A DNA stretch of 64,000 bases from Escherichia coli (GCF_024502345.1 NZ_JALDNN010000001.1), one strand, 5' to 3'. Shown: positions 39,118 to 64,000, numbered from the stretch's first letter. Translations and numbers: made by a program. The notes: generated by a model not told the origin, from the letters alone.

Positions 39118-39204
39118 GCCCGGATGGTGGAATCGGTAGACACAAGGGATTTAAAATCCCTCGGCGTTCGCGCTGTGTGGGTTCAAGTCCCACTCCGGGT
39201 ACCA
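39118..39204 (+). tRNA. leuZ: tRNA-Leu (UAA anticodon), class II tRNA with long variable arm; integration site of the downstream island
   Basis: GCCCGGATGGTGGAATCGGTAGACACAAGGGATTTAAAATCCCTCGGCGTTCGCGCTGTGTGGGTTCAAGTCCCACTCCGGGTACCA. Confidence 0.9.
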
Positions 39205-39245
39205 TGGGAAACATCAGAATAATCAAAGCAATAAGCAGTGTCGTT

Positions 39246-39269
39246 AAACCACCTCCGGGTGGTTTTTTT
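39246..39269 (+). terminator. Rho-independent terminator of the glyW-cysT-leuZ operon
   Basis: AAACCACCTCCGGGTGGTTTTTTT hairpin plus T-run. Confidence 0.8.
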
Positions 39270-39445
39270 GTGCCTGAAATTCATGTCCTGTGCATATCCT
39301 GTGCTCACGGGGTGCGATGAGCTGCAATCTCCAGCCTGGCAATGACGAATCGAACGTGTCGCCTCCAGCATAGAGAACCAGGCCGCTTTGCCTGTTTTCC
39401 GGTACGCTTCCGGGAAGGGGGGCCTGCTGAGCAAGCTGTAATGCT

Positions 39446-40186
39446 CTAGCCACCCTGAGTACAAAGTTGCTTAATTCGTGCAATCACCTCATCTCTGTAC
39501 TTCTGGTGTCCGCGCATAGCCCGTGGATGGGCAATTCTGAAACAGATTGCATTACCTGTTTTGAACTCCCATAGCTTCCCCGGAATGACTGAAGAAGTCT
39601 CATAGCCGCCCAGCTCAGTAAGCACCTGTTTTATGATGTAGTCTGTTCTCCGGGCTCCAGATGCAAAGATGATGAAATCAGGCTCAAGGTGTTTAATTTG
39701 TACCGCCAGCAGCTTCAGCGAGGCTAATATGACTTCCTGCACTTCATTTTGAGGGCGATTGAGAGGGGTCAGTCCGTCGTAATCCCACGCCAGTAGATTG
39801 GCATACACGATTGCCTGGGGAAGAATATTAAGCTCCCGGGCCAGCCTGAAATGATATTGCGTGAAGCGGCTACGTGATTTGAGGTTGGTGGTGCCATCAT
39901 TTTGTACCGGAAGATGATTCCTGTAACGATCTACAGCTTCTTCAACCACCTGCCCGATGGTGACGTCAGGTATAAGTCCCAACACCCGTGATATCGTATT
40001 CTTACCATTCAGCGTATTCCAGCCTGCGGTTTCACGTCCAACCAGCATGATTTTTATCGGTGAATGCCAGTATTCTTCAAACGGCACGGGTAAAAAGACG
40101 CCTGAGTATTTATCTTCATTCAGGTTAAATGACTGGGCGTCAACTTCCTGTAATATCCGTTTGTACGCGTCTAATAGCTTTTCCAT
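39446..40186 (-). CDS. Island-encoded hypothetical protein, possibly a divergent uracil-DNA-glycosylase-superfamily protein
   Basis: 246-aa ORF between leuZ and the integrase; weak resemblance to UDG motifs (IMLVGRETAG; C-terminal IAHPRAMRG); assignment tentative. Confidence 0.45.
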   Translation of the reverse strand: MEKLLDAYKRILQEVDAQSFNLNEDKYSGVFLPVPFEEYWHSPIKIMLVGRETAGWNTLNGKNTISRVLGLIPDVTIGQVVEEAVDRYRNHLPVQNDGTTNLKSRSRFTQYHFRLARELNILPQAIVYANLLAWDYDGLTPLNRPQNEVQEVILASLKLLAVQIKHLEPDFIIFASGARRTDYIIKQVLTELGGYETSSVIPGKLWEFKTGNAICFRIAHPRAMRGHQKYRDEVIARIKQLCTQGG

Positions 40187-40236
40187 TCTTCAATCCTGCC
40201 CCGTAATAAAAACACCTTCAGATATATATTATCTCC

Positions 40237-41484
40237 ATGATATCAATCAGATACATGAGGATAAATATGCAAAAATCCTTCCGATTCACCAATTCATCCA
40301 TCAAAGCCCTTCCGGCAAACACAGATACCCGATCTACAGAGCTTGAGGTATCAGATACCGAGGTCATAGGCCTCAAATGTCTCTCAGGTCGAACGGGTAA
40401 CAAACGTTTCCTCCTGCGCTACACATTCCACGGTACCAAAAAAAGTATCAGTATTGGCAGATTCCCTGAAATCGATGTGGGGACAGCCCGTCAGATAGCT
40501 CGCCGTCATAAGGAGGCGATTGCACTTGGAAATGACCCCAAGGCAGAGCGCGATAATTATCGTGCGATGCCAACGCTTAGTGAGTTTTTTCACCTGACCT
40601 ATGTTCCGTTCATCAAGCGCCATAAAAAGTCCTGGGATAAGGATGTTCAGCGTTTCACGCAATACATTGAACCTCGTCTGGGGAAGATACGTTACTGCGA
40701 TCTCAGGGCCAGAGAGATACAACAGGTGCTGTTTGACATGCTGGAGGGGCGTATTCACGGGCAGCAATATGCGCCGTCTACCTGTAACAGAGCCCTTGCT
40801 ATTCTGAAAACGATGGGGCGTTATGCGTTGCGACAGGATGTGCTGGAAAAGAATGAAGCCGATAAGATCCCTTTACTGAAAGAGAATAATCAGCGGACGC
40901 GCTTTTTTGATGCTGATGAGATCAGGCGCATTCTTGACGCTGCTACCCAATATCCCAACAAAGCTGCCGGGGGATTGATAGCCATGTTGTTGTTAACCGG
41001 TACACGCAAATCAGAAATGCTTAATGTCAGGCATGAACATATCGACCGGGCCAATCGTACTCTGTTCATTCCTTATACAAAAAATGGTCGCAGTCGGACG
41101 GTATATCTAAGCGATGCAGCATTATCGATTATTGATGCTATCCCACGAGTTGGCAGTAATCCGTATCTGTTCGCCATTAAGGATAATGGAAAACCGATAT
41201 CGGAACCCCGATGGGCATATGAAAAAATACTGGCACAGTGCGGTATAGACAAGAATGAAGTCTGTTTTCACACCACACGTCATTCTGTTGCCTCTTTACT
41301 GGTTTCGAGTGGTCAATTCAGCCTGTATGACGTTAAAGCACAACTGGCGCATGCCAGTATTCAAAGTACGGAGCGCTACGCGAAATTGACACCAGAGCGT
41401 ATGCGTCAGACCGGGCAGGGCGTAACTGACCTTCTTTTGAACACCGTTACTGCCGGTAACAATGATGATTTTAGCACCCCTTGA
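40237..41484 (+). CDS. int: P4-type tyrosine recombinase / integrase (probable start MQKSFRFTNSSIKALP at about 40267)
   Basis: C-terminal catalytic region with HTTRHSVASLL and LAHASIQSTERYAKL; immediately next to a tRNA gene. Confidence 0.85.
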   Translation: MISIRYMRINMQKSFRFTNSSIKALPANTDTRSTELEVSDTEVIGLKCLSGRTGNKRFLLRYTFHGTKKSISIGRFPEIDVGTARQIARRHKEAIALGNDPKAERDNYRAMPTLSEFFHLTYVPFIKRHKKSWDKDVQRFTQYIEPRLGKIRYCDLRAREIQQVLFDMLEGRIHGQQYAPSTCNRALAILKTMGRYALRQDVLEKNEADKIPLLKENNQRTRFFDADEIRRILDAATQYPNKAAGGLIAMLLLTGTRKSEMLNVRHEHIDRANRTLFIPYTKNGRSRTVYLSDAALSIIDAIPRVGSNPYLFAIKDNGKPISEPRWAYEKILAQCGIDKNEVCFHTTRHSVASLLVSSGQFSLYDVKAQLAHASIQSTERYAKLTPERMRQTGQGVTDLLLNTVTAGNNDDFSTP

Positions 41485-41493
41485 ACGTGGAGT

Positions 41494-41751
41494 ATGAGTA
41501 TGCCGTTAAAATGTCCTAAGTGTGGTAGCCGAAATACAGTGACAGAAACTGCCGGAAAGATAGCAGAAGTGACTCGCGATGACCGGTTCCTGACATCGAC
41601 ATCCGGTTATATTAGCCCGGAGCAATTACCAGAATTGCTTAAAGAAATCATCAGGGCGATACAACGTCTCTTTAGATTCCTTGAACAGCGTGAAAGGAAT
41701 AATGCGCCAGTGCTGATCTGCAAGGATTGTGGATATTATGAAAGAATATAG
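41494..41751 (+). CDS. Small zinc-ribbon protein (two CxxC pairs)
   Basis: 85-aa ORF, CPKCGS...CKDCGY. Confidence 0.5.
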   Translation: MSMPLKCPKCGSRNTVTETAGKIAEVTRDDRFLTSTSGYISPEQLPELLKEIIRAIQRLFRFLEQRERNNAPVLICKDCGYYERI

Positions 41752-41796
41752 ATGACCACTGAAGGCAATTCCAGATTCTTTAGCCTGTCTATGTAA

Positions 41797-41830
41797 CCCC
41801 GATACTTAAAACGTATCGGGTTTTTTGTTT
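41797..41830 (+). terminator. Rho-independent terminator
   Basis: Hairpin CCCGATAC-TTAAAACG-TATCGGG followed by TTTTTTGTTT. Confidence 0.65.
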
Positions 41831-41844
41831 ATGAGGATTATTCA

Positions 41845-42216
41845 ATGAAATTTGTCTCGAACTGGCAAGACCTGCCGTCGCTCCTTCTTCCGGAGTCAGT
41901 AATGAGTCTGTTGAAAACAGAGCTGGTACTCCCATTTGAAGATGAATACTCTGCAATGAGTTTCTGGGATGAAGTCGGGGTGACATTAATATATGTCGAG
42001 CCCGATGATGTACCTGAAGATATTAAAGCGCAGGTATTAAATGTGATTCATCAGTTAATTGCAAATCCAGAATTTGTAGTCCGTCTGACAGATGACTATT
42101 ACCTGATGCTTTCTGTTACGGAAGATAACGGGAACGGTATTTATCTGTTATTTCACCCCGATTGCCCTCTGAAGGGTATTGATTTATTAATTTCTATGGC
42201 CGAATCACGCTATTAA
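41845..42216 (+). CDS. Hypothetical acidic protein
   Basis: 123-aa ORF with plausible SD; first of three co-oriented island genes. Confidence 0.45.
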   Translation: MKFVSNWQDLPSLLLPESVMSLLKTELVLPFEDEYSAMSFWDEVGVTLIYVEPDDVPEDIKAQVLNVIHQLIANPEFVVRLTDDYYLMLSVTEDNGNGIYLLFHPDCPLKGIDLLISMAESRY

Positions 42217-42241
42217 ACACAAGCAAAACCTGGAACGCAAA

Positions 42242-42775
42242 ATGAGTAAATCAAAATTAGTTAAAAATAATGTTGAGTCAGTTTCGAAGGAGATTAAAAA
42301 TGAGGCAGAGGTTATTCATGAAAATCTCAGTGCAGATGAACAAACATTATCTGATATAAAAGACTATCAGTTGCTCATTGAAACAGGCCAGGCAGAAAAA
42401 ATCAGTCCTAAGGCAAGTGGTATTCTGACATGGCAACTGGCGATATCAGAGGTGGACAATGAACTTTATCTTCGTCTGGTGGCAAATGGCTGTGGAGGGT
42501 TGTTCTCTAAGGACTGGATCTCACTTTCTAAGATTGCAACTGTTCTGGAAACACAACCTGCTACCGGCTTCTCATCCGGAGTATTCAGGCCGCTATTCAA
42601 AGGGGCAAGCGCCAACAATGCAGGTTTTCTGGCTGCTGTTTTACGCTCCCCGGATATATGTCTGCTGGAGGCACATCCAGAGAAGTTATTTACTCATGTA
42701 TTATACCCGGACTGGAGGGAGCGGTTGAATAAACTTAATACGATCAGTAGCCAGGGAAAGATTACAGAGGATTAA
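42242..42775 (+). CDS. Hypothetical protein
   Basis: 177-aa ORF, 25 bp after the preceding gene. Confidence 0.45.
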   Translation: MSKSKLVKNNVESVSKEIKNEAEVIHENLSADEQTLSDIKDYQLLIETGQAEKISPKASGILTWQLAISEVDNELYLRLVANGCGGLFSKDWISLSKIATVLETQPATGFSSGVFRPLFKGASANNAGFLAAVLRSPDICLLEAHPEKLFTHVLYPDWRERLNKLNTISSQGKITED

Positions 42776-42847
42776 TTTATTTCCTGCACTGTTATACAAC
42801 CAGAAATCACCACACACCACTATTTACTTTCTAAAGGAAAATTTATT

Positions 42848-43282
42848 ATGCAAACCCAATATGCCTTAAAACAGGCAGGATTAACTCTGCCTGTTACTAA
42901 AGAATTTCAGCAGCATATTACTACTCTTCTGGCAAATCAGGTTTTACAAAAAATAACTGAGGCAGTGGTTATTAATTTCCGCGATCCGGACTACAGTGCA
43001 GAATCCGGGGGCTTTCATCCCGTTGAAATACGGTTTATCCGTAAGAATAATGAATGGTATTTTGATTATGTCACAGATTTTAGTTATATGGGGCGTGTCT
43101 ACCCTGAGCTGGAAAAAGAAATTGATTTTTGCTGGTCGGGGAATTATGTCTTCCATTATCTGATTGGGGATATTTCACTGGCAGCAGAGAGGAATGAACT
43201 CTGGTCTCTGTGGGAGCGTAATTTTATGGAGTATCTCTCTATGGGGATTTACCGGGTAACGGTAACTGTGGAAAGTTGTTGA
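42848..43282 (+). CDS. Hypothetical protein
   Basis: 144-aa ORF, co-oriented. Confidence 0.45.
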   Translation: MQTQYALKQAGLTLPVTKEFQQHITTLLANQVLQKITEAVVINFRDPDYSAESGGFHPVEIRFIRKNNEWYFDYVTDFSYMGRVYPELEKEIDFCWSGNYVFHYLIGDISLAAERNELWSLWERNFMEYLSMGIYRVTVTVESC

Positions 43283-43583: not shown

Positions 43584-43811
43584 ATGTATAAAACTCGCGG
43601 TGAAAGGATCGCAGAAAGGCTGTGCTGGATATTACTTCAACTGTATACCGGTAATACGGTATCGGTTAATGATATATGTCAGCGTTTCGCGGTCAGTCGC
43701 CGAACCGGACAGCGTGATTTGTTGAGAGTTGAAACTGTAACGGAAACTATTTCACCTGGAAGGGTAAGGCTGGCAAATTTGATAAGGGAACGAGTTAGAC
43801 GAAATTTTTAA
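43584..43811 (+). pseudogene. Remnant of a WYL/BrxR-type regulator gene (N-terminal HTH only)
   Basis: 75-aa ORF resembling the N-terminal HTH of the 300-aa regulator at 44773-45675; no WYL domain follows. Confidence 0.4.
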
Positions 43812-43892: not shown

Positions 43893-44711
43893 CTACTCAA
43901 ATGATATTAATTTAGGTGCGACAGTGTTTTTATGACATGTTAAATTCGCAAGATCAATAATATCATGAAACAATTTTATGTCGTCGTCAGTGAGCTCTAC
44001 GTCTGGATCAGCTAAATCGGCACAGGTAACATTTAACCAGTGTGTTAATGAATCAATCCTGTTTGAAGTAATATATTCAGTGTGACCAATATCCCACTTC
44101 CAGTTGATCACCCGAGCAGGTCTGAATCTCACCTCCCGAACCCCAATTGGCGTTACTGACTCTACGAGAGGGTATATCGTGTTAAGTACTTTATCATGTT
44201 CACTGTAGATATTTAAATGCCCCATTTTTGAACCGTAAGCCATTTTCATTATGTTCTCTGTATAACTTGTTATTGGGGTGGCTCCGGCCATAGAGATTGT
44301 TAAGAGAATATTATCATTTTTAATATAGGGTAATGTATTGTTTATTAATCGAGTCCCTAAAGAATGACCCATTATGATCACATTACGCTTTTCTTTAACG
44401 TATATCTCGTTTATTACGTGTGCTAATTTTTCTCTGTTATTAACTGCTGCTTTCGTTGCATTATACCAGGCCTGACGCGCTTTAAATGGAATGGAGATTG
44501 ATGACAATAAAGGAGATGTTCTCAGGGGGAAGAGAGTATATAACCCCCACTTGTTCGCTATGTCAGAACTTAATATGGATAGTAGATTTGCCGATTCCCA
44601 TTTATAGTATCTGACATCAAGGCCACACCCTGCTTTAATTCGGTTAAACCATGATATATCATTTTCGGTCAGAAACCCTGATACAACAAGAAGAACCGGG
44701 CATTTTTTCAT
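43893..44711 (-). CDS. Alpha/beta-hydrolase-fold protein with GHSLG nucleophile elbow (esterase/lipase-like), function unknown
   Basis: 272-aa ORF; GxSxG motif GHSLG; candidate Asp/His downstream; immediately downstream of the WYL regulator gene. Confidence 0.6.
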   Translation of the reverse strand: MKKCPVLLVVSGFLTENDISWFNRIKAGCGLDVRYYKWESANLLSILSSDIANKWGLYTLFPLRTSPLLSSISIPFKARQAWYNATKAAVNNREKLAHVINEIYVKEKRNVIIMGHSLGTRLINNTLPYIKNDNILLTISMAGATPITSYTENIMKMAYGSKMGHLNIYSEHDKVLNTIYPLVESVTPIGVREVRFRPARVINWKWDIGHTEYITSNRIDSLTHWLNVTCADLADPDVELTDDDIKLFHDIIDLANLTCHKNTVAPKLISFE

Positions 44712-44772: not shown

Positions 44773-45675
44773 TTACGGGGCGTTACTTGGCTGGGTGTAA
44801 CGTTTCAGTGCGGATTGTATATCTTCAGCAAGTTGTTGACGGATTGAGGCCGGTTGTATTACTTCGACATCCGGTATCCAGTATTTCATTAAAGGCATTA
44901 TCTGATCTGTGTGTGTTACACGTGATATCACCAGTAAATCGCCAGACCGGGAAGTATGAATTATTTCCTGTCCTGGCAATAGATGACGGTGGGTAAACCA
45001 CGGAGCAACATGTGCGGAAACTGAAATAAGAACTTCGATAAGGTCTTCGCTATACCAGATACCATCTGTCTTTTCTATTTTTTCATTAATTTCGGGGATT
45101 ATCCTGAAAGAGATATTACTCATGCAAACGTCTTTGACAGATGAGATAACAAAGCTTTTTAATGTACTGTCATGGGCGGCAGCGAGATACCACAATCCGT
45201 TGTCATTAACCAGCCTGTATGGCTCAACAGCCCGAAACTCTTTATCTTTGTAATTAAAATTTACTTTCTTCTGTGACAGGATGGCATCGGATAATACATT
45301 CAGAATTGACATGAATGATCCGCAGTTTTCGTATGGACGTTGTTTTATCAGAAACGGGTTGTTTTTCGTGTTACCTAACAAAATACTCAGTAGTCTGTCA
45401 TCCCAGCGAGGGAACAGCCCTTCAATACCCAGGATGCGCGTGAAATGACGTAAATCAGCATTGCTGCGTTGACCGAGAACACCGTCAGACAGGCGATAGC
45501 GACCATTTTGTCGAATCAGATTAAGATAGGACAGGCGCTGAGTAAGATCACGACGGATAGTTTTTTCGCAAACGTTAAATTCCTCAGATAACTCCCGGAC
45601 GGCTAGTGACTCACCATTGTTCAGGCGAGTTAATATCAATCCGAGTCGATATCCAAGTTTATCGTGCTTACCCAT
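44773..45675 (-). CDS. HTH + WYL-domain transcriptional regulator (BrxR/CapW-like, defence-island regulator family)
   Basis: 300-aa ORF; N-terminal DeoR-like HTH ([22 protein letters not shown]), central WYL-type segment ([10 protein letters not shown]). Confidence 0.65.
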
Positions 45676-56029: not shown

Positions 56030-57266
56030 GGGGTGGAAACGAGTACCGATTAAGGATGTGTGCGAGTCTATAATCGATTGCGTAAATAAAACAGCTCCAG
56101 TTGTTGATTATGAAACTCCCTTTAAGATGATTCGTACCACGAATGTACGTAATGGAAGGGTTAATACTGAAGACGTCAGATATGTGACTGAAGACACTTA
56201 CCTGCAATGGGTTCGACGCGGAAAACCGCAAGTAGGTGATATCATCTTTACACGTGAAGCACCTGTAGGAGAAGCAGGTGTCCTGCAAGATGCTGAAGGT
56301 ATTTTCCTCGGGCAAAGAACGATGATGTATCGAGCTGATACCTGCCTTTCAGATAACTATTTCTTGTTCTACTCGTTATCAAGTCCCTTCTGCCAGAAAC
56401 AAATTGAAGATTTTAGCAATGGCGGTACTGTAGCTCATATGAGAGTTCCAGATTGCGGTGAGATATTGATCAATCTACCGCCTTTCCTCGAACAAAAGAA
56501 AATCGCCCAAATCCTGTCAACCTGGGATAAGGCGATTTCGGTGACGGAAAAGCTTCTCACCAACAGCCAGCAGCAGAAAAAAGCCCTGATGCAGCAATTG
56601 CTTACTGGGAAGAAACGCTTGCTGGATGAGAATGGGACAAGGTTTTCTGAAACTTGGAAATTATATGCCTTATCGAAATTATTTCAGAGAGTTACGACTA
56701 AAAACAATGGAAAAAGCAACAATGTTGTAACCATTTCTGGACAACATGGTTTGATTAAACAGGAAGACTTTTTCAAGAAAACAGTCGCATCAGATACCCT
56801 TGATGGTTATTTCTTATTAAAAAAAGGGCAGTTTGCTTACAATAAAAGTTACTCTAATGGTTATCCGATGGGTGCAATAAAAAGATTAAATCGATATCCA
56901 GAGGGAGTAGTAACAACTCTGTATATATGTTTTGAACTTACTACACCCAAAAAATCATGTGGTGACTATTGGGAGCATTATTTTGAGTCAGGGCTTTTGA
57001 ATAACAGTTTGTCTCAAATTGCTCATGAAGGTGGACGGGCTCATGGCTTGCTAAATGTAAAACCTTCGGACTTCTTTTCATTAAAAGTTGCGGTTCCTGG
57101 CTTTGAAGAGCAACAAAAAATCGCATTAGTTCTGTCCGCTGCCGACACCGAAATCTCCACACTGGAGAAAAAACTCGCCTGCCTGAAAGACGAGAAGAAA
57201 GCCTTGATGCAGCAACTGCTGACCGGGAAACGTCGGGTGAAAGTGGATGAGGCGGTTGCCGTATGA
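56019..57266 (+). CDS. hsdS: Type I restriction-modification system specificity subunit HsdS
   Basis: 415-aa ORF with two target-recognition domains separated by conserved repeats (KKALMQQLLTGKKRLL and KKALMQQLLTGKRRVK); overlaps the hsdM end. Confidence 0.85.
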   Translation: MVPKGWKRVPIKDVCESIIDCVNKTAPVVDYETPFKMIRTTNVRNGRVNTEDVRYVTEDTYLQWVRRGKPQVGDIIFTREAPVGEAGVLQDAEGIFLGQRTMMYRADTCLSDNYFLFYSLSSPFCQKQIEDFSNGGTVAHMRVPDCGEILINLPPFLEQKKIAQILSTWDKAISVTEKLLTNSQQQKKALMQQLLTGKKRLLDENGTRFSETWKLYALSKLFQRVTTKNNGKSNNVVTISGQHGLIKQEDFFKKTVASDTLDGYFLLKKGQFAYNKSYSNGYPMGAIKRLNRYPEGVVTTLYICFELTTPKKSCGDYWEHYFESGLLNNSLSQIAHEGGRAHGLLNVKPSDFFSLKVAVPGFEEQQKIALVLSAADTEISTLEKKLACLKDEKKALMQQLLTGKRRVKVDEAVAV

Positions 57267-57946
57267 AACTGACGAAAAGCGGTCCACTGACTGACCGGGA
57301 AATCGACTGGCTGGAAGAAATATTAATGAAGTATGGAATGGATGATTCTGTACTCTGTTTCTCTGAGCTGGATGGATTGCTGACGGCGATTTTATCAGGT
57401 CCAAATATGGTTTCACCCAATATCTGGCTGAGTGCTATTTGGGGAGGAGGCGATTATCATCCGAAATGGTCATCTGAGAGAGAGATGGAGCGTTTTGTCA
57501 GTCTGTGTTTTCAGCATATGAACGATATCGCTGGTTGCCTTTATGACGCCCCTGAACTGTTTGAGCCGATTTTCAATGAGCGTGAGGTAAAGGGGGAAAA
57601 ATATACCATTGTGGAAGAGTGGTGTTTTGGTTATATGAAAGGAAAGTCACTGGATGACTGGTCTGGTCTTCCCGGTGAGTTACGGCCTTCTCTGGAAGTG
57701 ATCGCTCTTCATGGCGTGGAGAAGAATTTTCCTGTACTTGAGAAAATGACCGGAGAGCAGTTTGAGAAAAGTATTTCCCTTATTCAGCCTGCTGCACTGG
57801 CACTTTATCAGTACTGGTTGTCAGTGAGAATGTCAGAGGCATCATCCCGGCCTGTTCCAGTGAAGGGGGCAGAAAACATGCCCGGGCGAAATGACCCGTG
57901 TCCGTGTGGCAGCGGTAAAAAATTTAAGAAGTGCTGTCTGCATTGA
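57263..57946 (+). CDS. YecA-like (UPF0149) protein with C-terminal SEC-C zinc motif, embedded in the Type I R-M operon
   Basis: 227-aa ORF; C-terminal GRNDPCPCGSGKKFKKCCLH; start overlaps the hsdS stop (ATGA). Confidence 0.8.
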   Translation: MKLTKSGPLTDREIDWLEEILMKYGMDDSVLCFSELDGLLTAILSGPNMVSPNIWLSAIWGGGDYHPKWSSEREMERFVSLCFQHMNDIAGCLYDAPELFEPIFNEREVKGEKYTIVEEWCFGYMKGKSLDDWSGLPGELRPSLEVIALHGVEKNFPVLEKMTGEQFEKSISLIQPAALALYQYWLSVRMSEASSRPVPVKGAENMPGRNDPCPCGSGKKFKKCCLH

Positions 57947-57995
57947 TGAATCTTCATGTGACCAGTAGCGAGTAGCGCCAGAAAGAAAAGGATTA

Positions 57996-60900
57996 ATGAT
58001 GAACCAGACGTACACGCCAAAATTCCAGGAAGAATACAGCGCCAAAATTCCGGCACTGACGTTACTGACCAGCCTCGGCTGGACGTTTTTATCTCCGAAA
58101 CAGATTATGGATTACCGGGGCTATAAACAGGATGAGGTGGTGCTGCGTCCGGTTCTGCGTGAAGAGCTGTCGAAGCGTTCCTTTATGGCGGGTGGCAAAA
58201 CCTGCCAGTTATCGGAAAAAGCACTGGATAACCTGATATCACAGGTCTGTTCTCCGGCGCTGAATGAAGGGCTGCTCAAAGCCAATGAACGGATGTATAA
58301 CCATCTGCTCTACGGTATCGCCGTCACGGAGTTTGTCGATGGCAAGAAGGTCAACCCCACCATTGCGCTGATCGACTGGGAACATCCGGAAAATAACCAG
58401 TTCCACTTTACTGAAGAATTTACGGTATTGCGGTCAGGTGGTGTTGAAACCCGGAGGCCAGATATTGTCTGCTTTGTTAATGGTATCCCGCTGGCTGTTA
58501 TTGAAGCGAAAAGCCCGGCTGGTCATGGCAAGAAAGGGCCAACCATTGACGAGGGGATATCCCAGAGTATCCGCAACCAGTTCAACGATGAAATCCCGCA
58601 GCTGTTTGTCTACAGCCAGTTATTACTTTCGATTAACGGTCATGACGGGCGCTACGGTACATGCCATACGCCAATGAAATTCTGGGCGGCATGGCGCGAA
58701 GAAGATATTACCGATGCGCAGATGTATGCTCTGCGCAACCATCCTTTATCGACTGAACAAATTCATGCGTTGTTTGATCATCGTCCATCAGCCGATCTCA
58801 ACTGGTACCAACAGTTAATCGCCGCCGGTGAACTGGCTGTCAGTGGACAGGACAAACTGCTCATCAGCCTGCTTTCGCCGGAACGTCTGCTGGAGATGAC
58901 CCGCTTCTTCACTCTGTTTGATAAAAAGACCGGGAAAATTGTCGCCCGCTATCAGCAGGTGTTCGGTATTAAAAGACTGCTGGAGCGCATCAGTACCCGC
59001 AGACCCGATGGGGGCAGGGAAGGTGGTGTTATCTGGCATACCACCGGCTCTGGCAAATCGTACACCATGGTGTTCCTCAGCAAGGCGCTGATTCTTCATG
59101 ACAGCCTGAAGCGGTGTCGTATCGTGGTGGTGACGGACCGTATCGATCTTGAAGAACAGCTCAGCAGTACCTTTGCATCCGGCGGCGAGTTGGCCGGGAA
59201 AAAAGACAAAGCCAATGCAATGGCGACATCCGGGCAGATGCTGGCGAAACAGATTGGCTCCGGTAAAGAACGCATCATTTTCACCCTAATCCAGAAATTT
59301 AATTCAGCGACAAAACTTCCTGAATGCGTCAATACCAGCCCCGATATCATCGTTCTGGTTGATGAAGGACACCGTAGCCAGGGTGGTGAGAACCATGTGC
59401 GAATGAAACTGGCACTGCCGAACGCCGCCTTTGTGGCATTTACTGGTACGCCATTGCTAAAAGAAGATAAGACCACCAATAAATTCGGACCGATTGTCCA
59501 CGCTTATACCATGCAGCGAGCGGTAGAAGATAAAGCCGTTACACCTTTGCTGTATGAAGAACGTATTCCCGACCTTGAGGTTAACGATCGGGCAATAGAT
59601 GCCTGGTTTGATCGTATTACCGATGGGTTAAGCGAAGCGCAAAAAGCCGACCTGAAGCGTAAATATGCCCGTAAAGGTGAGGTTTATAGTGCAGATGATC
59701 GCATCCGTCTGATCGCACTCGATATCGCCACGCACTTCTCGAAGAATATTGATGAGGGACTGAAAGGCCAGCTTGCCTGCGACAGCAAGATTTCCGCCAT
59801 CAAATATAAAAAGTATCTTGATGAAGCCGGGTTGTTTGAGTCAGCTGTAGTTATCAGCCCGCCGGATACCCGGGAAGGGAATACCGAAGTGGATGAAAGC
59901 AAACTGCCGGAAGTGACGAAATGGTGGAAGGATAATGTCGGCACGCAGGATGAGTCTGTGTATACCCGTAATGTCATCAGTCGTTTCGATACCGATGAGA
60001 AGCTCAAATTGCTGATAGTCGTTGATAAACTGCTCACCGGGTTTGATGAGCCGAAGAATACCGTGCTGTATATCGACAAGCCGCTTAAGTCCCACAACCT
60101 TATCCAGGCGATTGCGCGGGTGAACCGACTGCATCCACTAAAAAAGTTCGGTCTGCTGATTGATTATCGCGGTATTCTGGCTGAGCTGGACACGACTATC
60201 GGCAAATATCAGGACCTCGCCTCCCGAACTCAGGGCGGATACGATATCAAAGATATTGACGGGCTGTACAGCGCCATGAGCTCTGAATACAAGCGCCTGC
60301 CGCATCTGTATAACCAGCTGTGGGCCATATTTGCCGGTGTTAAAAACAAAAATGATACTGAGCAGTTACGTGCGGTACTGGTGCCTAAAATGGAAGAACG
60401 TGACGGAGAGATGGTCGATATCCATCAGAAAACCCGTGATGATTTCTTCGAGGCGTTAACGGCCTTTGCCGGATGCCTGAAAGTGGCACTGCAGTCCGCT
60501 ACCTTCTTCACCGACAAGAGCTTTACGGAACAAGACCGAAATCTCTATAAAGAAACCGTAAAACAGATGTCCAGCCTGCGCCAGTGGGCGATGCAGGTAA
60601 GTGGAGAGCAGGTCAATTATGACGACTACGCTGAGCAGGTGAAAAAACTGCTGGATAAGCATGTCACCGGCGTTGAAGTTCGTGAACCGGATGGCGTGTA
60701 TGAAGTCGGTAAAATGGGCAAGAGCGAAAAGCCCGAAGAGTGGGACAACAATAAAACCCGCAATGAAACCGACATCATTAAAACCCGTGTGACAAAGATG
60801 ATTGAGCAGGAATTGCGTGATGACCCGTATGCTCAGGAGGCATTTTCAAAACTCCTGCGTATGGCTATCGAAGAGGCTGAAAAACTGTTTGACCATCCGC

Positions 60901-61283
60901 TGAAACAGTACCTTTTGTTCCGTGAATTTGAAGAACAGGTTGAAGCCCGTAAGCTCAGCGATATCCCGGATGCACTGGCGGTAAACAAGCATGCTCAGGC
61001 GTATTACGGTGTATTTAAAAAAGAGCTACCTGAGGTTTTTGCGGTAAACGACGTTCAGGTGCAGGATAAGTGGACGAAGCTGGCTTTTGAAGTGGACAAC
61101 ATTATCGTCAAAGCGGTGGCAGAAAACTCCCTGAACCCCCAGGACATTGAGAAAGTCGTTAAGACAAGTCTGCTACCACTGCTGTTTACGGCCTGCCGGG
61201 AAATTGGTGCCGGAATGAATCAGGTTAACCGTATTGTTGAAACCATCATCCAGATACTGCGCGTTGGTTTGATGAAATCATGA
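57996..61283 (+). CDS. hsdR: Type I restriction-modification system endonuclease/helicase subunit HsdR
   Basis: 1095-aa ORF; Walker A TGSGKS, DEAH-type motif VLVDEGHRSQ, helicase C region. Confidence 0.9.
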   Translation: MMNQTYTPKFQEEYSAKIPALTLLTSLGWTFLSPKQIMDYRGYKQDEVVLRPVLREELSKRSFMAGGKTCQLSEKALDNLISQVCSPALNEGLLKANERMYNHLLYGIAVTEFVDGKKVNPTIALIDWEHPENNQFHFTEEFTVLRSGGVETRRPDIVCFVNGIPLAVIEAKSPAGHGKKGPTIDEGISQSIRNQFNDEIPQLFVYSQLLLSINGHDGRYGTCHTPMKFWAAWREEDITDAQMYALRNHPLSTEQIHALFDHRPSADLNWYQQLIAAGELAVSGQDKLLISLLSPERLLEMTRFFTLFDKKTGKIVARYQQVFGIKRLLERISTRRPDGGREGGVIWHTTGSGKSYTMVFLSKALILHDSLKRCRIVVVTDRIDLEEQLSSTFASGGELAGKKDKANAMATSGQMLAKQIGSGKERIIFTLIQKFNSATKLPECVNTSPDIIVLVDEGHRSQGGENHVRMKLALPNAAFVAFTGTPLLKEDKTTNKFGPIVHAYTMQRAVEDKAVTPLLYEERIPDLEVNDRAIDAWFDRITDGLSEAQKADLKRKYARKGEVYSADDRIRLIALDIATHFSKNIDEGLKGQLACDSKISAIKYKKYLDEAGLFESAVVISPPDTREGNTEVDESKLPEVTKWWKDNVGTQDESVYTRNVISRFDTDEKLKLLIVVDKLLTGFDEPKNTVLYIDKPLKSHNLIQAIARVNRLHPLKKFGLLIDYRGILAELDTTIGKYQDLASRTQGGYDIKDIDGLYSAMSSEYKRLPHLYNQLWAIFAGVKNKNDTEQLRAVLVPKMEERDGEMVDIHQKTRDDFFEALTAFAGCLKVALQSATFFTDKSFTEQDRNLYKETVKQMSSLRQWAMQVSGEQVNYDDYAEQVKKLLDKHVTGVEVREPDGVYEVGKMGKSEKPEEWDNNKTRNETDIIKTRVTKMIEQELRDDPYAQEAFSKLLRMAIEEAEKLFDHPLKQYLLFREFEEQVEARKLSDIPDALAVNKHAQAYYGVFKKELPEVFAVNDVQVQDKWTKLAFEVDNIIVKAVAENSLNPQDIEKVVKTSLLPLLFTACREIGAGMNQVNRIVETIIQILRVGLMKS

Positions 61284-62035
61284 GTGAAAAAGAATCGCCA
61301 TCAATGAAAGCGTTACGCATTGTCTATGGTGATGAGGTCATCGTCGTACAGTGTGTTCCGCGTCAGGTCGTAAAGGGCAGGGTGCTCATTAAGGTTTATC
61401 CGGACTGCCGGGTTGTGGCCTCTGTACCGCCTGAAACACCGGAGCACGAGGTATTGTCTGCGCTGAAAAAACGTGGGCGCTGGATATACCAGCAACTGCG
61501 TGATTTCAGGGAGCAACAGATACACATTGTTCCGCGTCAGTATGTCAGCGGAGAAAGCCATTATTATCTCGGTAAGCAATATCAGTTGAAAGTGACAGAA
61601 GACGCTACTGTGCCGCAACGAGTGAAAATGTTGCGTGGACGTCTGGAAGTGACTGTCAGACACAAATCGGCAGAAAAGATTAAAGCCTTGCTGGCTGAAT
61701 GGTATCGGGAACGTGCCAGAGATGTTTTTCAGCGCAGGCTTGATTTACTGATTCCGCAGACCCTTTGGGTCAGTGAGCGTCCTCCGATACGTCTGCGGGC
61801 GATGCAAACGCAATGGGGCAACTGTTCAGCAAAAGGCTGTCTGACCCTGAATCCATGGCTGGTTAAGGCATCTTCAGAATGTATCGATTATGTTTTGCTA
61901 CATGAGTTATGCCATGTGGCTGAGCACAACCACAGCGAGGAGTTTTACCGTCTGATGGGACAGGTTATGCCGGGCTGGGAAAAGGTTAAGAAGCGACTGG
62001 ATGGTATGGCTGGGATGTTGTTGGCAGATATGTAA
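61280..62035 (+). CDS. YgjP-like (DUF45 / M48 family) zinc metallopeptidase, coupled to hsdR
   Basis: 251-aa ORF with HExxH motif (LLHELCHVAEHNH); start overlaps the hsdR stop (ATGA). Confidence 0.75.
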   Translation: MSEKESPSMKALRIVYGDEVIVVQCVPRQVVKGRVLIKVYPDCRVVASVPPETPEHEVLSALKKRGRWIYQQLRDFREQQIHIVPRQYVSGESHYYLGKQYQLKVTEDATVPQRVKMLRGRLEVTVRHKSAEKIKALLAEWYRERARDVFQRRLDLLIPQTLWVSERPPIRLRAMQTQWGNCSAKGCLTLNPWLVKASSECIDYVLLHELCHVAEHNHSEEFYRLMGQVMPGWEKVKKRLDGMAGMLLADM

Positions 62036-62060
62036 CTTATCAATATGAGTTCTTAAGAGT

Positions 62061-63932
62061 TTGGTCAGTCTCGTTAATGCAGGGAGTATAATAATGAGTA
62101 AGTTAGATAATAAAATTGAAGCACGCCATCGTAATTTGTTTGATGTTCTAAATGCGCAAAAATATACCGTTGATTACTTTCAGCGCGAGTATAGCTGGGG
62201 TGAGAAACATATTGAAGAGTTGGTTACAGACTTAACATCTGCGTTTCTCAATGAATACACAGTCGGTGATTCTCGGGAGCAGGGTGAAAACTACAATAAT
62301 TATTACTTAGGACCATTTGTTGTGAGTAGTAAAGATGGAAAGCGGAGTATTATTGATGGTCAGCAACGACTGACTTCATTAACTTTATTTCTAATTTACC
62401 TCCATAATCTTCAGAAAGAACTTAAATATGAAGAGAAAATAGAATCAATGATTTTCTCCGAGCTACGTGGCAGCAAATCATTCAATATAGTAGTTGAAGA
62501 CAGAATTCCTTGCATGGAAGCATTGTTTAATTTTGGTAGCTATAGTTTAGTTGATGGGGATGATGAGTCAACCCATAACATGGTGGAGAGATATCAGAAT
62601 ATCACAGATGCTTTTCCTGATGAGTTAAAAGGTCAGGCTTTTCCTTTTTTTATCGACTGGCTTAAGTATAACGTTATTATGGTTGAGATAGTCGCCTATT
62701 CAGATGAAAACGCATATACCATCTTTGAGACTATGAATGACCGAGGATTGAATCTTACTCCGTCCGAAATGCTTAAAGGTTTTTTACTTTCACGTTTTCA
62801 TCAGGGAGATAAACGCCAAAAGGCAAATGAACTCTGGAAAAAAGCGATGATGGATTTAAAAAGCTATGACAAAGATGAAGACCAACGTTTTTTCCAGTCA
62901 TGGTTGCGTGCTCAATATGCTGATACAATACGCCCGGGTAAAGCTGGTTCAAAAAATGAAGACTTTGAAAAAATAGGTACGCGTTTTCATAGCTGGGTTA
63001 GAGATAATCTTCAGGCGGTGGGATTGGACCCAGATAATGGTGAGACATTCGAACGATTTATACAAAAAAACTTTTTGTTTTATTTGAATGCCTATACACA
63101 AATACTGAATGCTGAGAGAGTATTAACGCACCAACTGGAATATGTATTTTATATCCACCATTGGGGTATTGCACCTACTTTAAGTTTTCCTTTGATGTTG
63201 GCTCCATTAAATGTAGGTGACAGTCCTGAGGCTGTGATAGCCAAAATAAACCTAGTGGCTCGCTATATTGAAACGTTTGTTGTTCGTCGTTCTGTTAATT
63301 TCCGAAAATTCTCTGCCAGTTCTATTCGTTACACAATGTACAGTCTTGTTAAAGAGATTCGTGGTAAAAGTTTTGAAGAATTAAAAGATTTATTATCTAA
63401 GAAGTTATCCGAAATGCCAGATACTTTTGCAGGAATGGAAGAGTTTCGTCTCCATGGTCAAAACTATCGTTTTGTGAAGTTTTTGCTTTCTCGTATAACT
63501 GCGTGGGTTGAGCAACAAGCCGGAATGAGTACAACCTTCATTACATATTATCAGCCAGAACACGGTAAGCCATTTGAAGTCGAGCATATTTGGGCCGATA
63601 AATATGAACGTTACTCTGATGAGTTTGAACAAGAGCACGAATTTAACAATTACAGAAATCGCTTAGGTGATTTGGTTTTATTACCTAGAGGCTCAAACCA
63701 GTCATATGGTGATTTGTGTTACGATCAAAAGCAACCTCATTACATCAAAGAGAATCTCCTGGCTAAATCGTTATGCCCATTGGCATATATGAATAACCCT
63801 AATTTCAATCAGTTGAGAAATGTATTCGGATTGCCTTTCAAACCACATGATTCATTTAAAAAACAAGATGTCGATGAACGACAGTCTTTGTATAAAATAA
63901 TTTGTGAGAATATTTGGGGCCATAATTTATAG
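62061..63932 (+). CDS. GmrSD-family Type IV restriction endonuclease (N-terminal DUF262 ParB-like domain, C-terminal DUF1524 HNH-like nuclease)
   Basis: 623-aa ORF; DUF262 signature IIDGQQRLTSL; C-terminal segment EVEHIWADKYERYSDEFEQEHEFNNYRNRLGDLVLLP. Confidence 0.75.
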   Translation: MVSLVNAGSIIMSKLDNKIEARHRNLFDVLNAQKYTVDYFQREYSWGEKHIEELVTDLTSAFLNEYTVGDSREQGENYNNYYLGPFVVSSKDGKRSIIDGQQRLTSLTLFLIYLHNLQKELKYEEKIESMIFSELRGSKSFNIVVEDRIPCMEALFNFGSYSLVDGDDESTHNMVERYQNITDAFPDELKGQAFPFFIDWLKYNVIMVEIVAYSDENAYTIFETMNDRGLNLTPSEMLKGFLLSRFHQGDKRQKANELWKKAMMDLKSYDKDEDQRFFQSWLRAQYADTIRPGKAGSKNEDFEKIGTRFHSWVRDNLQAVGLDPDNGETFERFIQKNFLFYLNAYTQILNAERVLTHQLEYVFYIHHWGIAPTLSFPLMLAPLNVGDSPEAVIAKINLVARYIETFVVRRSVNFRKFSASSIRYTMYSLVKEIRGKSFEELKDLLSKKLSEMPDTFAGMEEFRLHGQNYRFVKFLLSRITAWVEQQAGMSTTFITYYQPEHGKPFEVEHIWADKYERYSDEFEQEHEFNNYRNRLGDLVLLPRGSNQSYGDLCYDQKQPHYIKENLLAKSLCPLAYMNNPNFNQLRNVFGLPFKPHDSFKKQDVDERQSLYKIICENIWGHNL

Positions 63933-64000
63933 CAAAGTTGGGGTGTTAATTAATGTGTAATGGCATCATGATTTTTAAAAGGAGGTTGAATTGCGTTCTG

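What the first reader, a model, noticed from the sequence alone, without database searches (positions are those of the whole stretch)
39118..64000. Pipolin-type integrative element inserted at tRNA-Leu (leuZ), extending past the window end
Immediately after the glyW-cysT-leuZ operon and its terminator, the conserved chromosomal context is replaced by at least 24.8 kb of foreign DNA: a P4-like integrase beside the tRNA, a piPolB-type family-B polymerase, an AlpA-like excisionase, a second tyrosine recombinase, and stacked defence genes. Base composition shifts visibly, with strongly AT-rich stretches around 51.2-54.5 kb. tRNA-adjacent integrase plus piPolB is the defining architecture of pipolins. 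No attR copy of the tRNA 3' end was seen inside the window, so the distal boundary is beyond position 64000.
Basis: partly seen in the sequence, partly recalled or inferred. Interest (0 to 1): 0.8.

Follow-up and report, generated by a model that had tools for sequence, protein, structure and literature searches.

The report
Known E. coli pipolin at leuZ

Summary
glyW-cysT-leuZ lie at 38902-39204, and everything from the leuZ anticodon loop (39149) to the window end is island DNA with lower G+C. K-12 has yecA 128 bp after leuZ.

The 866-aa gene at 46430-49030(-) is an orthologue of the characterised E. coli piPolB. D59, E61, D368, K613, H614, K623 and R625 and the KH-X8-KTRG motif sit at the published positions.

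The gene order matches published enterobacterial pipolins: UDG-like gene, IntSXT-type integrase, DUF2787, WYL regulator, piPolB, excisionase, IntP2-type integrase, then a type I R-M operon with a YecA-like gene, and GmrSD.

piPolB occurs in 295 of 5426 complete E. coli genomes. Relatives show a ~131-bp attL/attR repeat (leuZ 3' half, 3'ETS-leuZ, terminator). attR is predicted 2.7-4.3 kb beyond the window end.

Corrections:
- The left boundary lies inside leuZ.
- A UDG-like gene lies between the tRNA and the integrase.
- The integrase is IntSXT-type rather than P4-type.

Verdict: already known, low interest.

Side observations I did not find in the pipolin papers I read:
- The element supplies the expressed leuZ 3' half and a variant 3'ETS-leuZ sRNA sponge.
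- A conserved 25-nt direct repeat brackets the piPolB-IntP2 module in several genera.
- An unannotated 75-aa HTH gene lies beside one repeat copy.

The parts
39118..39204 (+). leuZ (tRNA-Leu UAA), the integration target. The gene is now chimeric: host 5' part, element-supplied 3' part from the anticodon loop onward.
   Evidence: ARAGORN and Rfam. The T-stem reads GTGTGGG..CCCACTCC here, against GTGCGGG..CCCGCTCC in K-12 and in the attR copy of a relative, which is a compensatory pair.
39149..39279 (+). attL: the left copy of the ~131-bp att direct repeat. It spans the leuZ 3' half, 3'ETS-leuZ and the terminator.
   Evidence: In CFSAN061762 the same segment is repeated 29,204 bp downstream, next to yecA. 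In the four-way alignment with the empty K-12 site, the attR copy and its downstream flank match the K-12 sequence almost base for base (one difference in the distal flank), and attL is the element version.
39205..39269 (+). Element-borne variant of the 3'ETS-leuZ sRNA sponge, now the copy transcribed with the tRNA operon.
   Evidence: K-12 annotation b4759. Differences from K-12 are G>C, A>C and a deleted AA in the ARN-rich stretch, plus a terminator-loop T>C. The window alone has G>T at 39248.
39446..40186 (-). Divergent uracil-DNA-glycosylase-superfamily protein (246 aa).
   Evidence: No Pfam or NCBIfam hit on the single sequence. A family profile hits family-4 UDG 4zbx at E=2e-5. The Pfam UDG model hits 18 of 46 family members at E<=0.1. 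The AF2 model has pLDDT 93.5, and all 50 listed Foldseek PDB hits are UDG-superfamily enzymes (family-4 UDG, UdgX, SMUG1, TDG).
40237..41484 (+). Tyrosine recombinase, IntSXT-type in the literature's classification. It is the presumed integrase for the leuZ site.
   Evidence: Arm-DNA-bind_3 (E=3e-13) and Phage_integrase (E=9e-23) domains. The R..HxxR..H..Y catalytic motifs are readable in the sequence. The literature places IntSXT beside the integration site.
41494..42775 (+). Three small orphan genes: an 85-aa Cys-pair protein and proteins of 123 aa and 177 aa. They are conserved pipolin core orphans.
   Evidence: PHROGs 32727, 32947 and 28971, all of unknown function. They are syntenic in Edwardsiella, Serratia, Citrobacter, Buttiauxella and Enterobacter pipolins.
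42848..43282 (+). DUF2787 protein, a pipolin core marker.
   Evidence: Pfam DUF2787 at E=4e-38. Named as a core gene in PMC11551731.
43473..43498 (+). Copy A of a conserved 25-26-nt direct repeat (CATTACCCCAACGACAGTATTACACC).
   Evidence: 2 matches in the window against 0 expected. The same pair lies at the same positions in three genera and in further Enterobacterales.
43584..43811 (+). Unannotated 75-aa HTH-only protein, a paralogue of the N-terminus of the WYL regulator.
   Evidence: Full-length tblastn matches at 76-99% aa identity in 9 loci from other genera. phrog_13105 at E=5e-8, the same family as the WYL protein. BLASTP against the WYL protein gives E=6e-5. No CDS is annotated there in the RefSeq relatives.
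43893..44711 (-). DUF726-family alpha/beta hydrolase-like protein.
   Evidence: Pfam DUF726 at E=1.6e-5 and LCAT at E=2e-4. Replaced by a GTPase in Edwardsiella and Serratia.
44773..45675 (-). HTH-WYL-WCX transcriptional regulator, a pipolin core marker.
   Evidence: Pfam HTH_DeoR, WYL and WCX. PADLOC WYL models.
46430..49030 (-). piPolB, primer-independent family-B DNA polymerase (866 aa from the MSNNLQ start). The longest ORF extends to 49093.
   Evidence: D59, E61, D368, K613, H614, K623 and R625 and the KH-X8-KTRG motif lie at the published positions. There are weak PolB hits in Pfam and PHROGs. Relatives are annotated as DNA polymerase type-B.
49077..49715 (-). 212-aa orphan immediately upstream of piPolB in the same operon.
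   Evidence: No family hit. Syntenic in other genera.
49705..49905 (-). Excisionase-like HTH protein (66 aa).
   Evidence: Pfam HTH_17 at E=1.6e-6. phrog_66, 'excisionase and transcriptional regulator', at E=4e-7.
50056..51186 (-). Second tyrosine recombinase, IntP2-type in the literature.
   Evidence: Phage_integrase at E=3e-20 and Phage_int_M. phrog_1 integrase at E=5e-52. Catalytic motifs are readable.
51330..52460 (-). 376-aa orphan, AT-rich, always next to IntP2. Function unknown.
52967..54202 (-). 411-aa orphan, AT-rich and accessory. Present in E. coli, Edwardsiella, Citrobacter and Franconibacter; absent in Serratia and Buttiauxella-type elements.
   Evidence: No hit in Pfam, NCBIfam, PADLOC or PHROGs.
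54262..54287 (+). Copy B of the conserved direct repeat (CATTACCCCAACGGCAGTTTTACACC). It lies in the divergent region between orf411 and hsdM.
54506..61283 (+). Type I restriction-modification operon: hsdM (54506-56029), hsdS (56019-57266), a YecA-like gene (57263-57946, PADLOC PDC-S12) and hsdR (57996-61283).
   Evidence: hsdM TIGR00497 at 283 bits (cut-off 242.75) and hsdR TIGR00348 at 461 bits (cut-off 284.55). PDC-S12 at E=4e-99. The YecA-like protein is 57% identical to K-12 YecA. The hsdS N-terminal recognition domain diverges from relatives.
61280..62035 (+). YgjP-like/M48 metallopeptidase, translationally coupled to hsdR.
   Evidence: Pfam YgjP-like at E=2e-56.
62094..63932 (+). GmrSD-family type IV restriction enzyme (DUF262 plus DUF1524). 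It is the last complete gene in the window.
   Evidence: GmrSD_N at E=1e-32 and GmrSD_C at E=4e-7. PADLOC HEC-06. The identical protein is followed elsewhere by PDDEXK_4, an Mrr-like gene, attR and yecA.

Best explanation
This is an integrated pipolin, a piPolB-encoding mobile genetic element of the type already described in E. coli, sitting in its standard site in leuZ between pgsA and yecA.

Shown here:
- The element begins inside leuZ at the anticodon loop. It carries its own copy of the leuZ 3' half, the 3'ETS-leuZ spacer and the terminator, so the tRNA gene is rebuilt at attL. In relatives the displaced host copy lies at attR next to yecA.
- It encodes an intact piPolB with every residue known to be needed for exonuclease, polymerase and priming activity.
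- It encodes two apparently intact tyrosine recombinases, an excisionase-like protein, a UDG-fold protein and a WYL regulator.
- It carries a cargo of restriction systems: a type I R-M operon with an embedded YecA-like gene and a YgjP peptidase, then GmrSD.
- The cargo is mosaic and has been exchanged recently between genera.

Inferred from the families and the literature:
- The IntSXT-type integrase recombines a circular attP with leuZ.
- Excision uses an integrase plus the excisionase.
- piPolB replicates the excised circle without a primase.
- The cargo defends the host against phages.

Excision and in vivo replication have not been observed for E. coli pipolins.
For: - tRNA operon and boundary.
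- Empty site in K-12.
- attL/attR repeat of ~131 bp, 29.2 kb apart, in CFSAN061762, with the host-type sequence at attR and the element-type sequence at attL (including a compensatory T-stem pair).
- piPolB residues and KH-X8-KTRG motif at the published positions.
- Domain assignments.
- UDG fold.
- Patchy distribution: piPolB in 295 of 5426 complete genomes, always chromosomal; 188 genomes hold at least 80% of this stretch.
- Literature match for site, core genes and defence cargo, including type I R-M and PDC-S12.
- Cargo exchange: the type I R-M genes are 92-97% identical in DNA to those of an Edwardsiella tarda pipolin, whereas core genes are 69-84% identical.
- Right end in relatives that carry the identical GmrSD protein: PDDEXK_4, Mrr-like gene, attR, yecA.
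Against: - attR of this particular element is outside the window, so its completeness is inferred from relatives.
- No experiment has shown excision or a circular form of E. coli pipolins. Flament-Simon et al. found the element single-copy and chromosomal.
- Which of the two recombinases acts at leuZ is unknown.
- piPolB matches generic PolB profiles only weakly (Pfam E=0.015). Its identification rests on motif positions and on the literature, not on a curated HMM.
Confidence: 0.93

Rival explanations
1. The island is pipolin-derived but is now an immobile, vertically inherited defence island. On this reading piPolB serves host DNA-damage tolerance or defence rather than element replication, and the integrases are idle.
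For: - No excision was detected in sequenced carriers.
- piPolB expression improved survival after mitomycin C and UV treatment.
- Many relatives show decay: truncated IntSXT, a frameshifted orf376, IS insertions, and loss of the whole piPolB module in strain I4.
Against: - In this window all core genes are intact: piPolB, both integrases with their catalytic motifs, and the excisionase.
- The distribution is patchy across E. coli.
- Near-identical modules occur in other genera.
- The literature reports a lack of cophylogeny with hosts.
- All of this implies horizontal movement.
Confidence: 0.2
2. The island is a P4-like phage satellite or a degraded prophage integrated at leuZ.
For: It has a tRNA-adjacent integrase with an Arm-DNA-bind_3 domain. 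Prophages are the commonest occupants of this site according to PMC11551731.
Against: - No capsid, tail, lysis, primase-helicase or cos-related genes are present.
- The only functional PHROG categories hit are integration/excision and DNA metabolism.
- The integrase scores 28 bits against a cut-off of 434 for the P4-like model.
- The integrase is at most 28% identical to any phage-encoded protein.
Confidence: 0.02
3. The island is an integrative conjugative or mobilisable element of the SXT type.
For: The tRNA-proximal integrase is classed in the IntSXT family in the literature.
Against: No relaxase, coupling protein or type IV secretion genes appear in the window or in complete relatives. The literature finds such genes practically absent from enterobacterial pipolins.
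Confidence: 0.02

Closest known systems
E. coli pipolins (Redrejo-Rodriguez et al. 2017, PMC5695915; Flament-Simon et al. 2020, PMC7385651; Mateo-Caceres and Redrejo-Rodriguez 2024, PMC11551731), for example those of 3-373-03_S1_C2 and ETEC H10407
   Same: - Same insertion site (leuZ between pgsA and yecA) and the same att repeat.
- piPolB has identical functional residues.
- Same core genes: IntSXT, DUF2787, WYL, excisionase, IntP2 and the orphans.
- Same kinds of cargo: type I R-M with PDC-S12, and DUF262/GmrSD.
- ETEC H10407 matches 98% of 39150-64000 at 97.7% identity.
   Different: No complete genome in the collection holds this exact combination. The best overall match is 97.8%. The piPolB DNA is 100% identical to strain C1, which has different cargo. 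The hsdS recognition domain is distinct. These are allele-level and mosaic differences only.
Pipolins of other Enterobacterales (Edwardsiella tarda, Serratia marcescens, Citrobacter, Buttiauxella, Enterobacter)
   Same: Same core gene order, and the same 25-nt direct repeat pair bracketing the piPolB-IntP2 module. The Edwardsiella element carries nearly the same type I R-M cassette.
   Different: - Core genes are only 69-84% identical in DNA.
- DUF726 is replaced by a GTPase.
- orf411 is absent in some.
- Serratia carries a different cargo: a UvrD/PD-(D/E)XK protein, a methylase and a ResIII protein.
Other tRNA-integrating genomic islands and satellites (P4-type satellites, PICI-like islands, SXT-type ICEs)
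   Same: A tyrosine recombinase, integration into the 3' part of a tRNA gene with the tRNA rebuilt from an element-borne copy, and defence cargo.
   Different: None of these encodes a family-B DNA polymerase. This element has no phage-interference, packaging or conjugation genes.
Casposons and polintons (the other self-synthesising elements with a PolB)
   Same: They carry their own family-B DNA polymerase.
   Different: Those elements integrate with a Cas1 or an rve-type integrase, have terminal inverted repeats and use protein-primed or primer-dependent PolBs. This element uses tyrosine recombinases, direct att repeats and a primer-independent PolB.

Membership tests
Pipolin (piPolB-encoding mobile element) | Encodes a piPolB. 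| tested here: met
   866-aa protein with D59/E61 (exonuclease), D368 (polymerase), NSLYGK, TTDG and KH-X8-KTRG at the published residue numbers.
Pipolin (piPolB-encoding mobile element) | Flanked by att-like direct repeats, one of which overlaps a tRNA gene. | tested here: inconclusive
   attL is present at 39149-39279. attR is not in the window. Relatives with the same content have attR 2.7 kb (L028-L033) or 4.3 kb (CFSAN061762) past the equivalent of the window end.
Pipolin (piPolB-encoding mobile element) | E. coli type: integrated at tRNA-Leu between pgsA and yecA. | tested here: met
   pgsA, glyW, cysT and leuZ lie directly upstream. The K-12 empty site has yecA directly downstream. The site is stated in PMC11551731.
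Pipolin (piPolB-encoding mobile element) | Gammaproteobacterial core: IntSXT-type recombinase near the att site, DUF2787, WYL protein, and IntP2-type recombinase with excisionase near piPolB. | tested here: met
   Domains and order were confirmed. The assignment of the two recombinases to IntSXT and IntP2 subfamilies is taken from the literature description of position and synteny. It was not established by phylogeny here.
Pipolin (piPolB-encoding mobile element) | Excises as a circle and self-replicates with piPolB. | not testable with these tools
   This needs PCR or sequencing of junctions and replication assays. The literature reports no detectable excision.
piPolB (primer-independent PolB) | De novo DNA synthesis without a primer. 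| not testable with these tools
   This is a biochemical property. It was shown for an orthologue in which the residues tested by mutation (D59, E61, D368, K613, H614, K623, R625) fall at the same positions as here.
piPolB (primer-independent PolB) | TPR1 and TPR2 insertions shared with protein-primed PolBs. | not tested
   No structure or alignment against phi29 or Bam35 polymerases was made here.
P4-like integrase | Scores as a member of the P4-type integrase family. | tested here: not met
   NCBIfam PRK09692 gives 28.1 bits against a cut-off of 434. The best phage tblastn hit is 28% identical, and P4 is not among the 15 best of 342 matching phage records, all of which are below 60% identity. 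Only the Arm-DNA-bind_3 plus catalytic-domain architecture is shared.
AlpA-like excisionase | Small HTH protein of the excisionase/AlpA superfamily encoded beside an integrase. | tested here: met
   A 66-aa protein with HTH_17 (E=1.6e-6) and phrog_66 excisionase (E=4e-7), 150 bp from the IntP2-type gene. Pfam did not report the specific Phage_AlpA model.
Type I restriction-modification system | hsdM, hsdS and hsdR in one operon. | tested here: met
   hsdM and hsdR score above curated cut-offs. hsdS has a partial match to PRK09737 (E=7e-18), is annotated as the S subunit in relatives, and has a Methylase_S hit in the Edwardsiella homologue.
GmrSD type IV restriction enzyme | N-terminal DUF262 (GmrSD_N) plus C-terminal DUF1524 (GmrSD_C) nuclease domain. 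| tested here: met
   Both Pfam domains are found.
Uracil-DNA glycosylase superfamily | UDG fold and sequence-profile relationship. | tested here: met
   Catalytic competence and substrate were not assessed. TM-scores are only 0.4-0.6, so it is a divergent member.

The most novel reading that the evidence does not exclude
The enterobacterial pipolin may be a composite element. On this reading, the piPolB, orf212, excisionase, IntP2 and orf376 block, together with the WYL regulator and the HTH-only orf75, forms a separately controlled or separately excisable inner unit. The two conserved 25-nt direct repeats (43473-43498 and 54262-54287) would be its att-like sites. This unit would be nested in an IntSXT island that holds the leuZ att site and the defence cargo.

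A milder version is that the repeats are the shared operator through which the WYL and HTH proteins switch on excision and replication and the neighbouring cargo operon.
Probability: 0.12. Interest if true: 0.6.

Novelty: already known. Interest (0 to 1): 0.2.

Why it matters
As a finding it mainly confirms a correct annotation. The window holds one more copy of a published element family that occurs in about 5% of complete E. coli genomes.

Pipolins matter in general for two reasons. They carry the only known primer-independent family-B polymerase, and they act as exchangeable stores of anti-phage systems. This copy, with all core genes intact, would be a reasonable substrate for the experiment that is still missing: showing excision, circularisation and piPolB-dependent replication.

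Three side observations give concrete handles for that work:
- The element replaces the expressed 3'ETS-leuZ sRNA sponge.
- A conserved repeat pair brackets the polymerase-integrase module.
- An unannotated HTH gene lies next to one repeat copy.

Tried and rejected
1. Curated profiles for piPolB. NCBIfam gave nothing, Pfam DNA_pol_B_2 gave only E=0.015, and a PDB sequence search gave nothing. Identification had to rest on motif positions from the 2017 paper.

3. The 25-nt repeat as an att site of a nested element.
- A synthetic empty-site junction was searched in 5426 E. coli genomes. Only strain I4 lacks the module.
- Strain I4 keeps both repeat copies. Its deletion ends 117 and 125 nt away from them, at a short microhomology.
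- An Atlantibacter deletion ends about 30 nt from copy B, again at a microhomology.
- Exact circle-junction and empty-site patterns were absent from the metagenome collection. That scan had no positive control.
- So there is no evidence of site-specific recombination at the repeat. The nested-element reading is kept only as a low-probability case.

4. The repeat as a known RNA or a promoter. Rfam gave no credible match, and no sigma-70 consensus lies beside either copy.

5. Reaching IntP2-less Vibrio or Aeromonas pipolins to test whether the repeat depends on IntP2. The last protein search returned only near-identical E. coli sequences. This test could not be done.

6. Finding the source genome. 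No complete genome matches the whole stretch above 97.8%. One genome shares the exact attL variant but has different cargo.

Full report
**Observation**

The window carries tRNA-Gly (38902-38977), tRNA-Cys (39032-39105) and tRNA-Leu with anticodon UAA (39118-39204). A hairpin with a T-run follows at about 39250-39275. Upstream lie uvrY, uvrC and pgsA, as in E. coli.

In K-12 the next features after leuZ are the 67-nt 3'ETS-leuZ RNA and then yecA, 128 bp from the tRNA. In the window neither yecA nor tyrP follows. Instead, about 24.8 kb of DNA with lower G+C (0.34-0.47 over most of it, 0.34-0.38 at 51-54 kb) runs to the window end.

**What the genes are**

From the tRNA outward the genes are:
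- A 246-aa gene on the minus strand. It has no Pfam or NCBIfam hit on its own. Its family profile matches family-4 uracil-DNA glycosylase (E=2e-5). Eighteen of 46 family members touch the Pfam UDG model at E<=0.1. Its confident AF2 model (pLDDT 93.5) retrieves only UDG-superfamily structures among the 50 listed hits.
- A 415-aa tyrosine recombinase with Arm-DNA-bind_3 and Phage_integrase domains.
- Three small orphans and a DUF2787 protein.
- A DUF726 hydrolase-like protein and an HTH-WYL-WCX regulator.
- A 108-aa orphan.
- The polymerase, then a 212-aa orphan.
- A 66-aa HTH_17 excisionase-like protein.
- A second tyrosine recombinase.
- Two AT-rich orphans of 376 and 411 aa.
- hsdM, hsdS, a YecA-like gene, hsdR and a YgjP/M48 peptidase.
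- A GmrSD-type enzyme.

**The polymerase**

Generic profiles barely see it (Pfam DNA_pol_B_2 at E=0.015; nothing in NCBIfam or PDB sequences). The start used in RefSeq relatives is MSNNLQ, preceded by GGAG.

Counted from that start, the protein is 866 aa. It has D59 and E61 in FDTEY, D368 in DYDLAGAY, NSLYGK, TTDG, and K613-H614-X8-K623-T-R625-G. These are exactly the residue numbers mutated in the characterised piPolB of E. coli 3-373-03_S1_C2, and the KH-X8-KTRG signature is what sets piPolBs apart from other PolBs.

**Insertion and boundaries**

The stretch 39100-64000 is at least 80% covered in 188 of 5426 complete E. coli genomes, with a best match of 97.8% identity. The piPolB gene is in 295 genomes, always on the chromosome.

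In the best relative (CFSAN061762) the island lies between leuZ and yecA. It is bounded by a direct repeat of about 131 bp, with copies 29,204 bp apart.

A four-way alignment with the empty K-12 site shows three things:
- The repeat starts in the anticodon loop (window 39149) and runs through the 3' half of the tRNA, the 3'ETS and the terminator, to about 39279.
- The copy next to yecA matches K-12 over the whole repeat, and its downstream flank differs from K-12 at a single base.
- The copy that completes leuZ is a distinct version. It has a compensatory change in the T-stem (C:G to T:A), three changes in the spacer and one in the terminator loop.

This is the signature of site-specific integration with crossover 5' of the T-arm. 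The element's attP supplies the new 3' end of the gene.

The window carries the element-type version, and no second copy of the tRNA 3' end exists inside it. Six loci that encode the identical GmrSD protein all continue with a PDDEXK_4 gene, an Mrr-like gene, a leuZ 3'-end copy 2.68-2.71 kb after the GmrSD stop, then yecA and tyrP.

So attR of this element is expected at roughly 66.6 kb on the window's scale, giving an element of about 27.4 kb. If the right end is like CFSAN061762, attR lies at about 68.3 kb.

The first refutation condition (the same genes in all relatives, with no repeats) is not met.

**Comparison with what is known**

This is the published E. coli pipolin.
- Flament-Simon et al. 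report that essentially all E. coli pipolins sit in the same Leu-tRNA gene with att repeats, a piPolB, XerC-like and phage-type recombinases, an excisionase next to one of them, a family-4 UDG and R-M genes.
- Mateo-Caceres and Redrejo-Rodriguez name the site (tRNA-Leu between pgsA and yecA). They define the gammaproteobacterial core: IntSXT near the att site, DUF2787, WYL and orphans, and IntP2 plus excisionase near piPolB. They show that the cargo is dominated by defence systems, with type I R-M and PDC-S12 among the commonest in Enterobacterales.
- ETEC H10407, a strain discussed in those papers, matches 98% of the stretch at 97.7% identity.

The labels 'P4-like' and 'AlpA-like' hold only at the level of domain architecture.

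**Mosaic structure**

- piPolB, orf212 and the excisionase are 100% identical in DNA to strain C1. That strain's integrase, hsdM and YecA-like gene differ by 5-18%, and its distal cargo is different.
- The type I R-M genes are 92-97% identical to those of an Edwardsiella tarda pipolin, whose core genes are only 69-84% identical.
- This agrees with the published picture of a stable core and an exchangeable cargo.

**Mechanism: shown and inferred**

Shown by sequence:
- integration in leuZ with rebuilding of the tRNA;
- intact catalytic motifs in both recombinases and in piPolB;
- defence gene content.

Inferred:
- which recombinase acts at leuZ (the literature favours IntSXT);
- excision with the excisionase;
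- replication of the circle by piPolB;
- sensing by the WYL regulator.

No excised form has been detected in sequenced carriers. A reading in which the island is now largely immobile therefore stays open, at about 0.2.

**Side observation 1: the att repeat contains a host regulatory RNA**

The repeat covers the whole 3'ETS-leuZ, a spacer-derived RNA that sponges the sRNAs RyhB and RybB. In carriers, the copy transcribed with the tRNA operon is therefore the element's version.

That version differs from K-12 in the ARN-rich stretch that binds Hfq (G>C, A>C and a two-base deletion). The blocks that pair with RybB and RyhB are kept.

The window has one further change, G>T at 39248. This is the last base of the 12-bp RyhB pairing block. 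It lowers the predicted duplex energy from about -46 to -43 kcal/mol. Among 525 complete genomes sharing this left end, only one has this change.

The words leuZ and ETS do not occur in the 2024 pipolin paper. No paper in the library combines ETSleuZ with integrase.

**Side observation 2: a conserved internal repeat pair**

A 25-26-nt direct repeat occurs at 43473-43498 and 54262-54287 (0 expected by chance). The same pair, in the same orientation and the same places, is present in other E. coli, in Edwardsiella and in Serratia. The flanks of the two copies are unrelated to each other, and in Serratia the flanks of copy B also differ from those in E. coli. The invariant part is TTACCCCAACG-N4-T-N-TTACAC.

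A scan of one genome per species found the motif in 16 stretches. All lie in Enterobacterales pipolin contexts, apart from one short contig labelled Nanosynbacter that carries the same hsdM.
- Copy A always lies between DUF2787 and a 75-aa ORF.
- Copy B always lies between the orf376/orf411 end of the long leftward operon (orf411, orf376, IntP2, excisionase, orf212, piPolB) and the first cargo gene.

The pair thus brackets the polymerase-integrase module (9.8-10.8 kb).

I tested whether the copies are recombination sites. I found no clean product:
- No empty-site junction occurs in 5426 E. coli genomes.
- Neither recombinant junction occurs in the metagenome collection (no positive control).
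- Two natural deletions, in strain I4 and in Atlantibacter, end 30-125 nt away from the motif at microhomologies.

A protein-binding (operator) role is the more likely reading, but it is untested. No sigma-70 consensus or Rfam family explains the motif. I did not find this repeat mentioned in the sections of the pipolin papers that I read.

**Side observation 3: an unannotated gene**

The 75-aa ORF at 43584-43811 is not annotated in the RefSeq relatives. It is conserved at full length, at 76-99% aa identity, in nine loci from other genera. It belongs to the same PHROG family as the N-terminal HTH of the WYL regulator (E=5e-8). It starts about 85 nt after repeat copy A.

**Verdict**

The finding is real and was correctly interpreted, but it is a member of an element family already described at this exact site. 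Interest is low. The side observations are small, testable additions and do not change the classification.

Noticed in passing
window 39149-39279 (3'ETS-leuZ copy at 39205-39269; SNP at 39248): The att repeat includes the whole 3'ETS-leuZ sRNA sponge, so the expressed leuZ 3' half and the sponge are supplied by the element. The changes sit in the Hfq-binding ARN stretch. The window has an extra G>T at the edge of the RyhB pairing block, which only 1 of 525 genomes with this left end shares.
   Followed up: partly
window 43473-43498 and 54262-54287; also L004 8344-8366 and 19095-19117, L005 9911-9936 and 19707-19732, L012-L027: A conserved 25-26-nt direct repeat (TTACCCCAACG-N4-T-N-TTACAC) brackets the piPolB-IntP2 module in pipolins of at least nine enterobacterial genera. 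No evidence of recombination at it was found. It could be an operator or an att-like site.
   Followed up: partly
window 43584-43811 (+): An unannotated 75-aa HTH-only gene, a paralogue of the WYL regulator's N-terminus. It is conserved across genera and starts about 85 nt downstream of repeat copy A.
   Followed up: partly
window 57263-57946 (+): A YecA paralogue (57% identical to chromosomal YecA; UPF0149 plus SEC-C motif; PADLOC PDC-S12) is embedded between hsdS and hsdR. The chromosomal yecA is the gene that flanks the element's far end in relatives.
   Followed up: partly
window 54506-62035 compared with L004 628-8124: The type I R-M cassette is 92-97% identical in DNA to that of an Edwardsiella tarda pipolin, whose core genes are only 69-84% identical. 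This indicates recent cargo exchange between genera.
   Followed up: yes
window 34472-35528: An IS5-family (IS903-like) insertion sequence: a 322-aa transposase at 34528-35496(-), terminal inverted repeats GGCTTTGTTGAATAAATC, and a 9-10-bp target duplication CAATCGAAT(T). It sits about 130 bp upstream of uvrY and is absent from the two relatives compared.
   Followed up: partly
[not shown]
   Followed up: yes
L010 9084-9776 (E. coli strain I4): A natural derivative keeps the leuZ-side genes and the cargo but has lost the whole 10.5-kb piPolB-IntP2 module. The deletion joins short microhomologies, and both 25-nt repeat copies are retained.
   Followed up: yes
L020 and L021 (Intestinirhabdus alba scaffolds 46 and 51): One genome carries three copies of the 25-nt motif, with two different orf376 types (one E. 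coli-like, one Buttiauxella-like). This suggests two pipolin modules in one strain, although the 2024 paper reports no double occupancy in Enterobacterales.
   Followed up: no
window 25831-27847: The flagellin (fliC) region is only 72-78% identical to the relatives compared, while its flanks are about 99% identical. This is the usual H-antigen variability.
   Followed up: no
window 43396-43420: A strongly conserved hairpin (CACGGGGGATCTCAGATCCCTCGTG plus a T-run) after DUF2787, about 50 nt before repeat copy A. It is kept nearly unchanged in Edwardsiella and Serratia and is probably a terminator.
   Followed up: no
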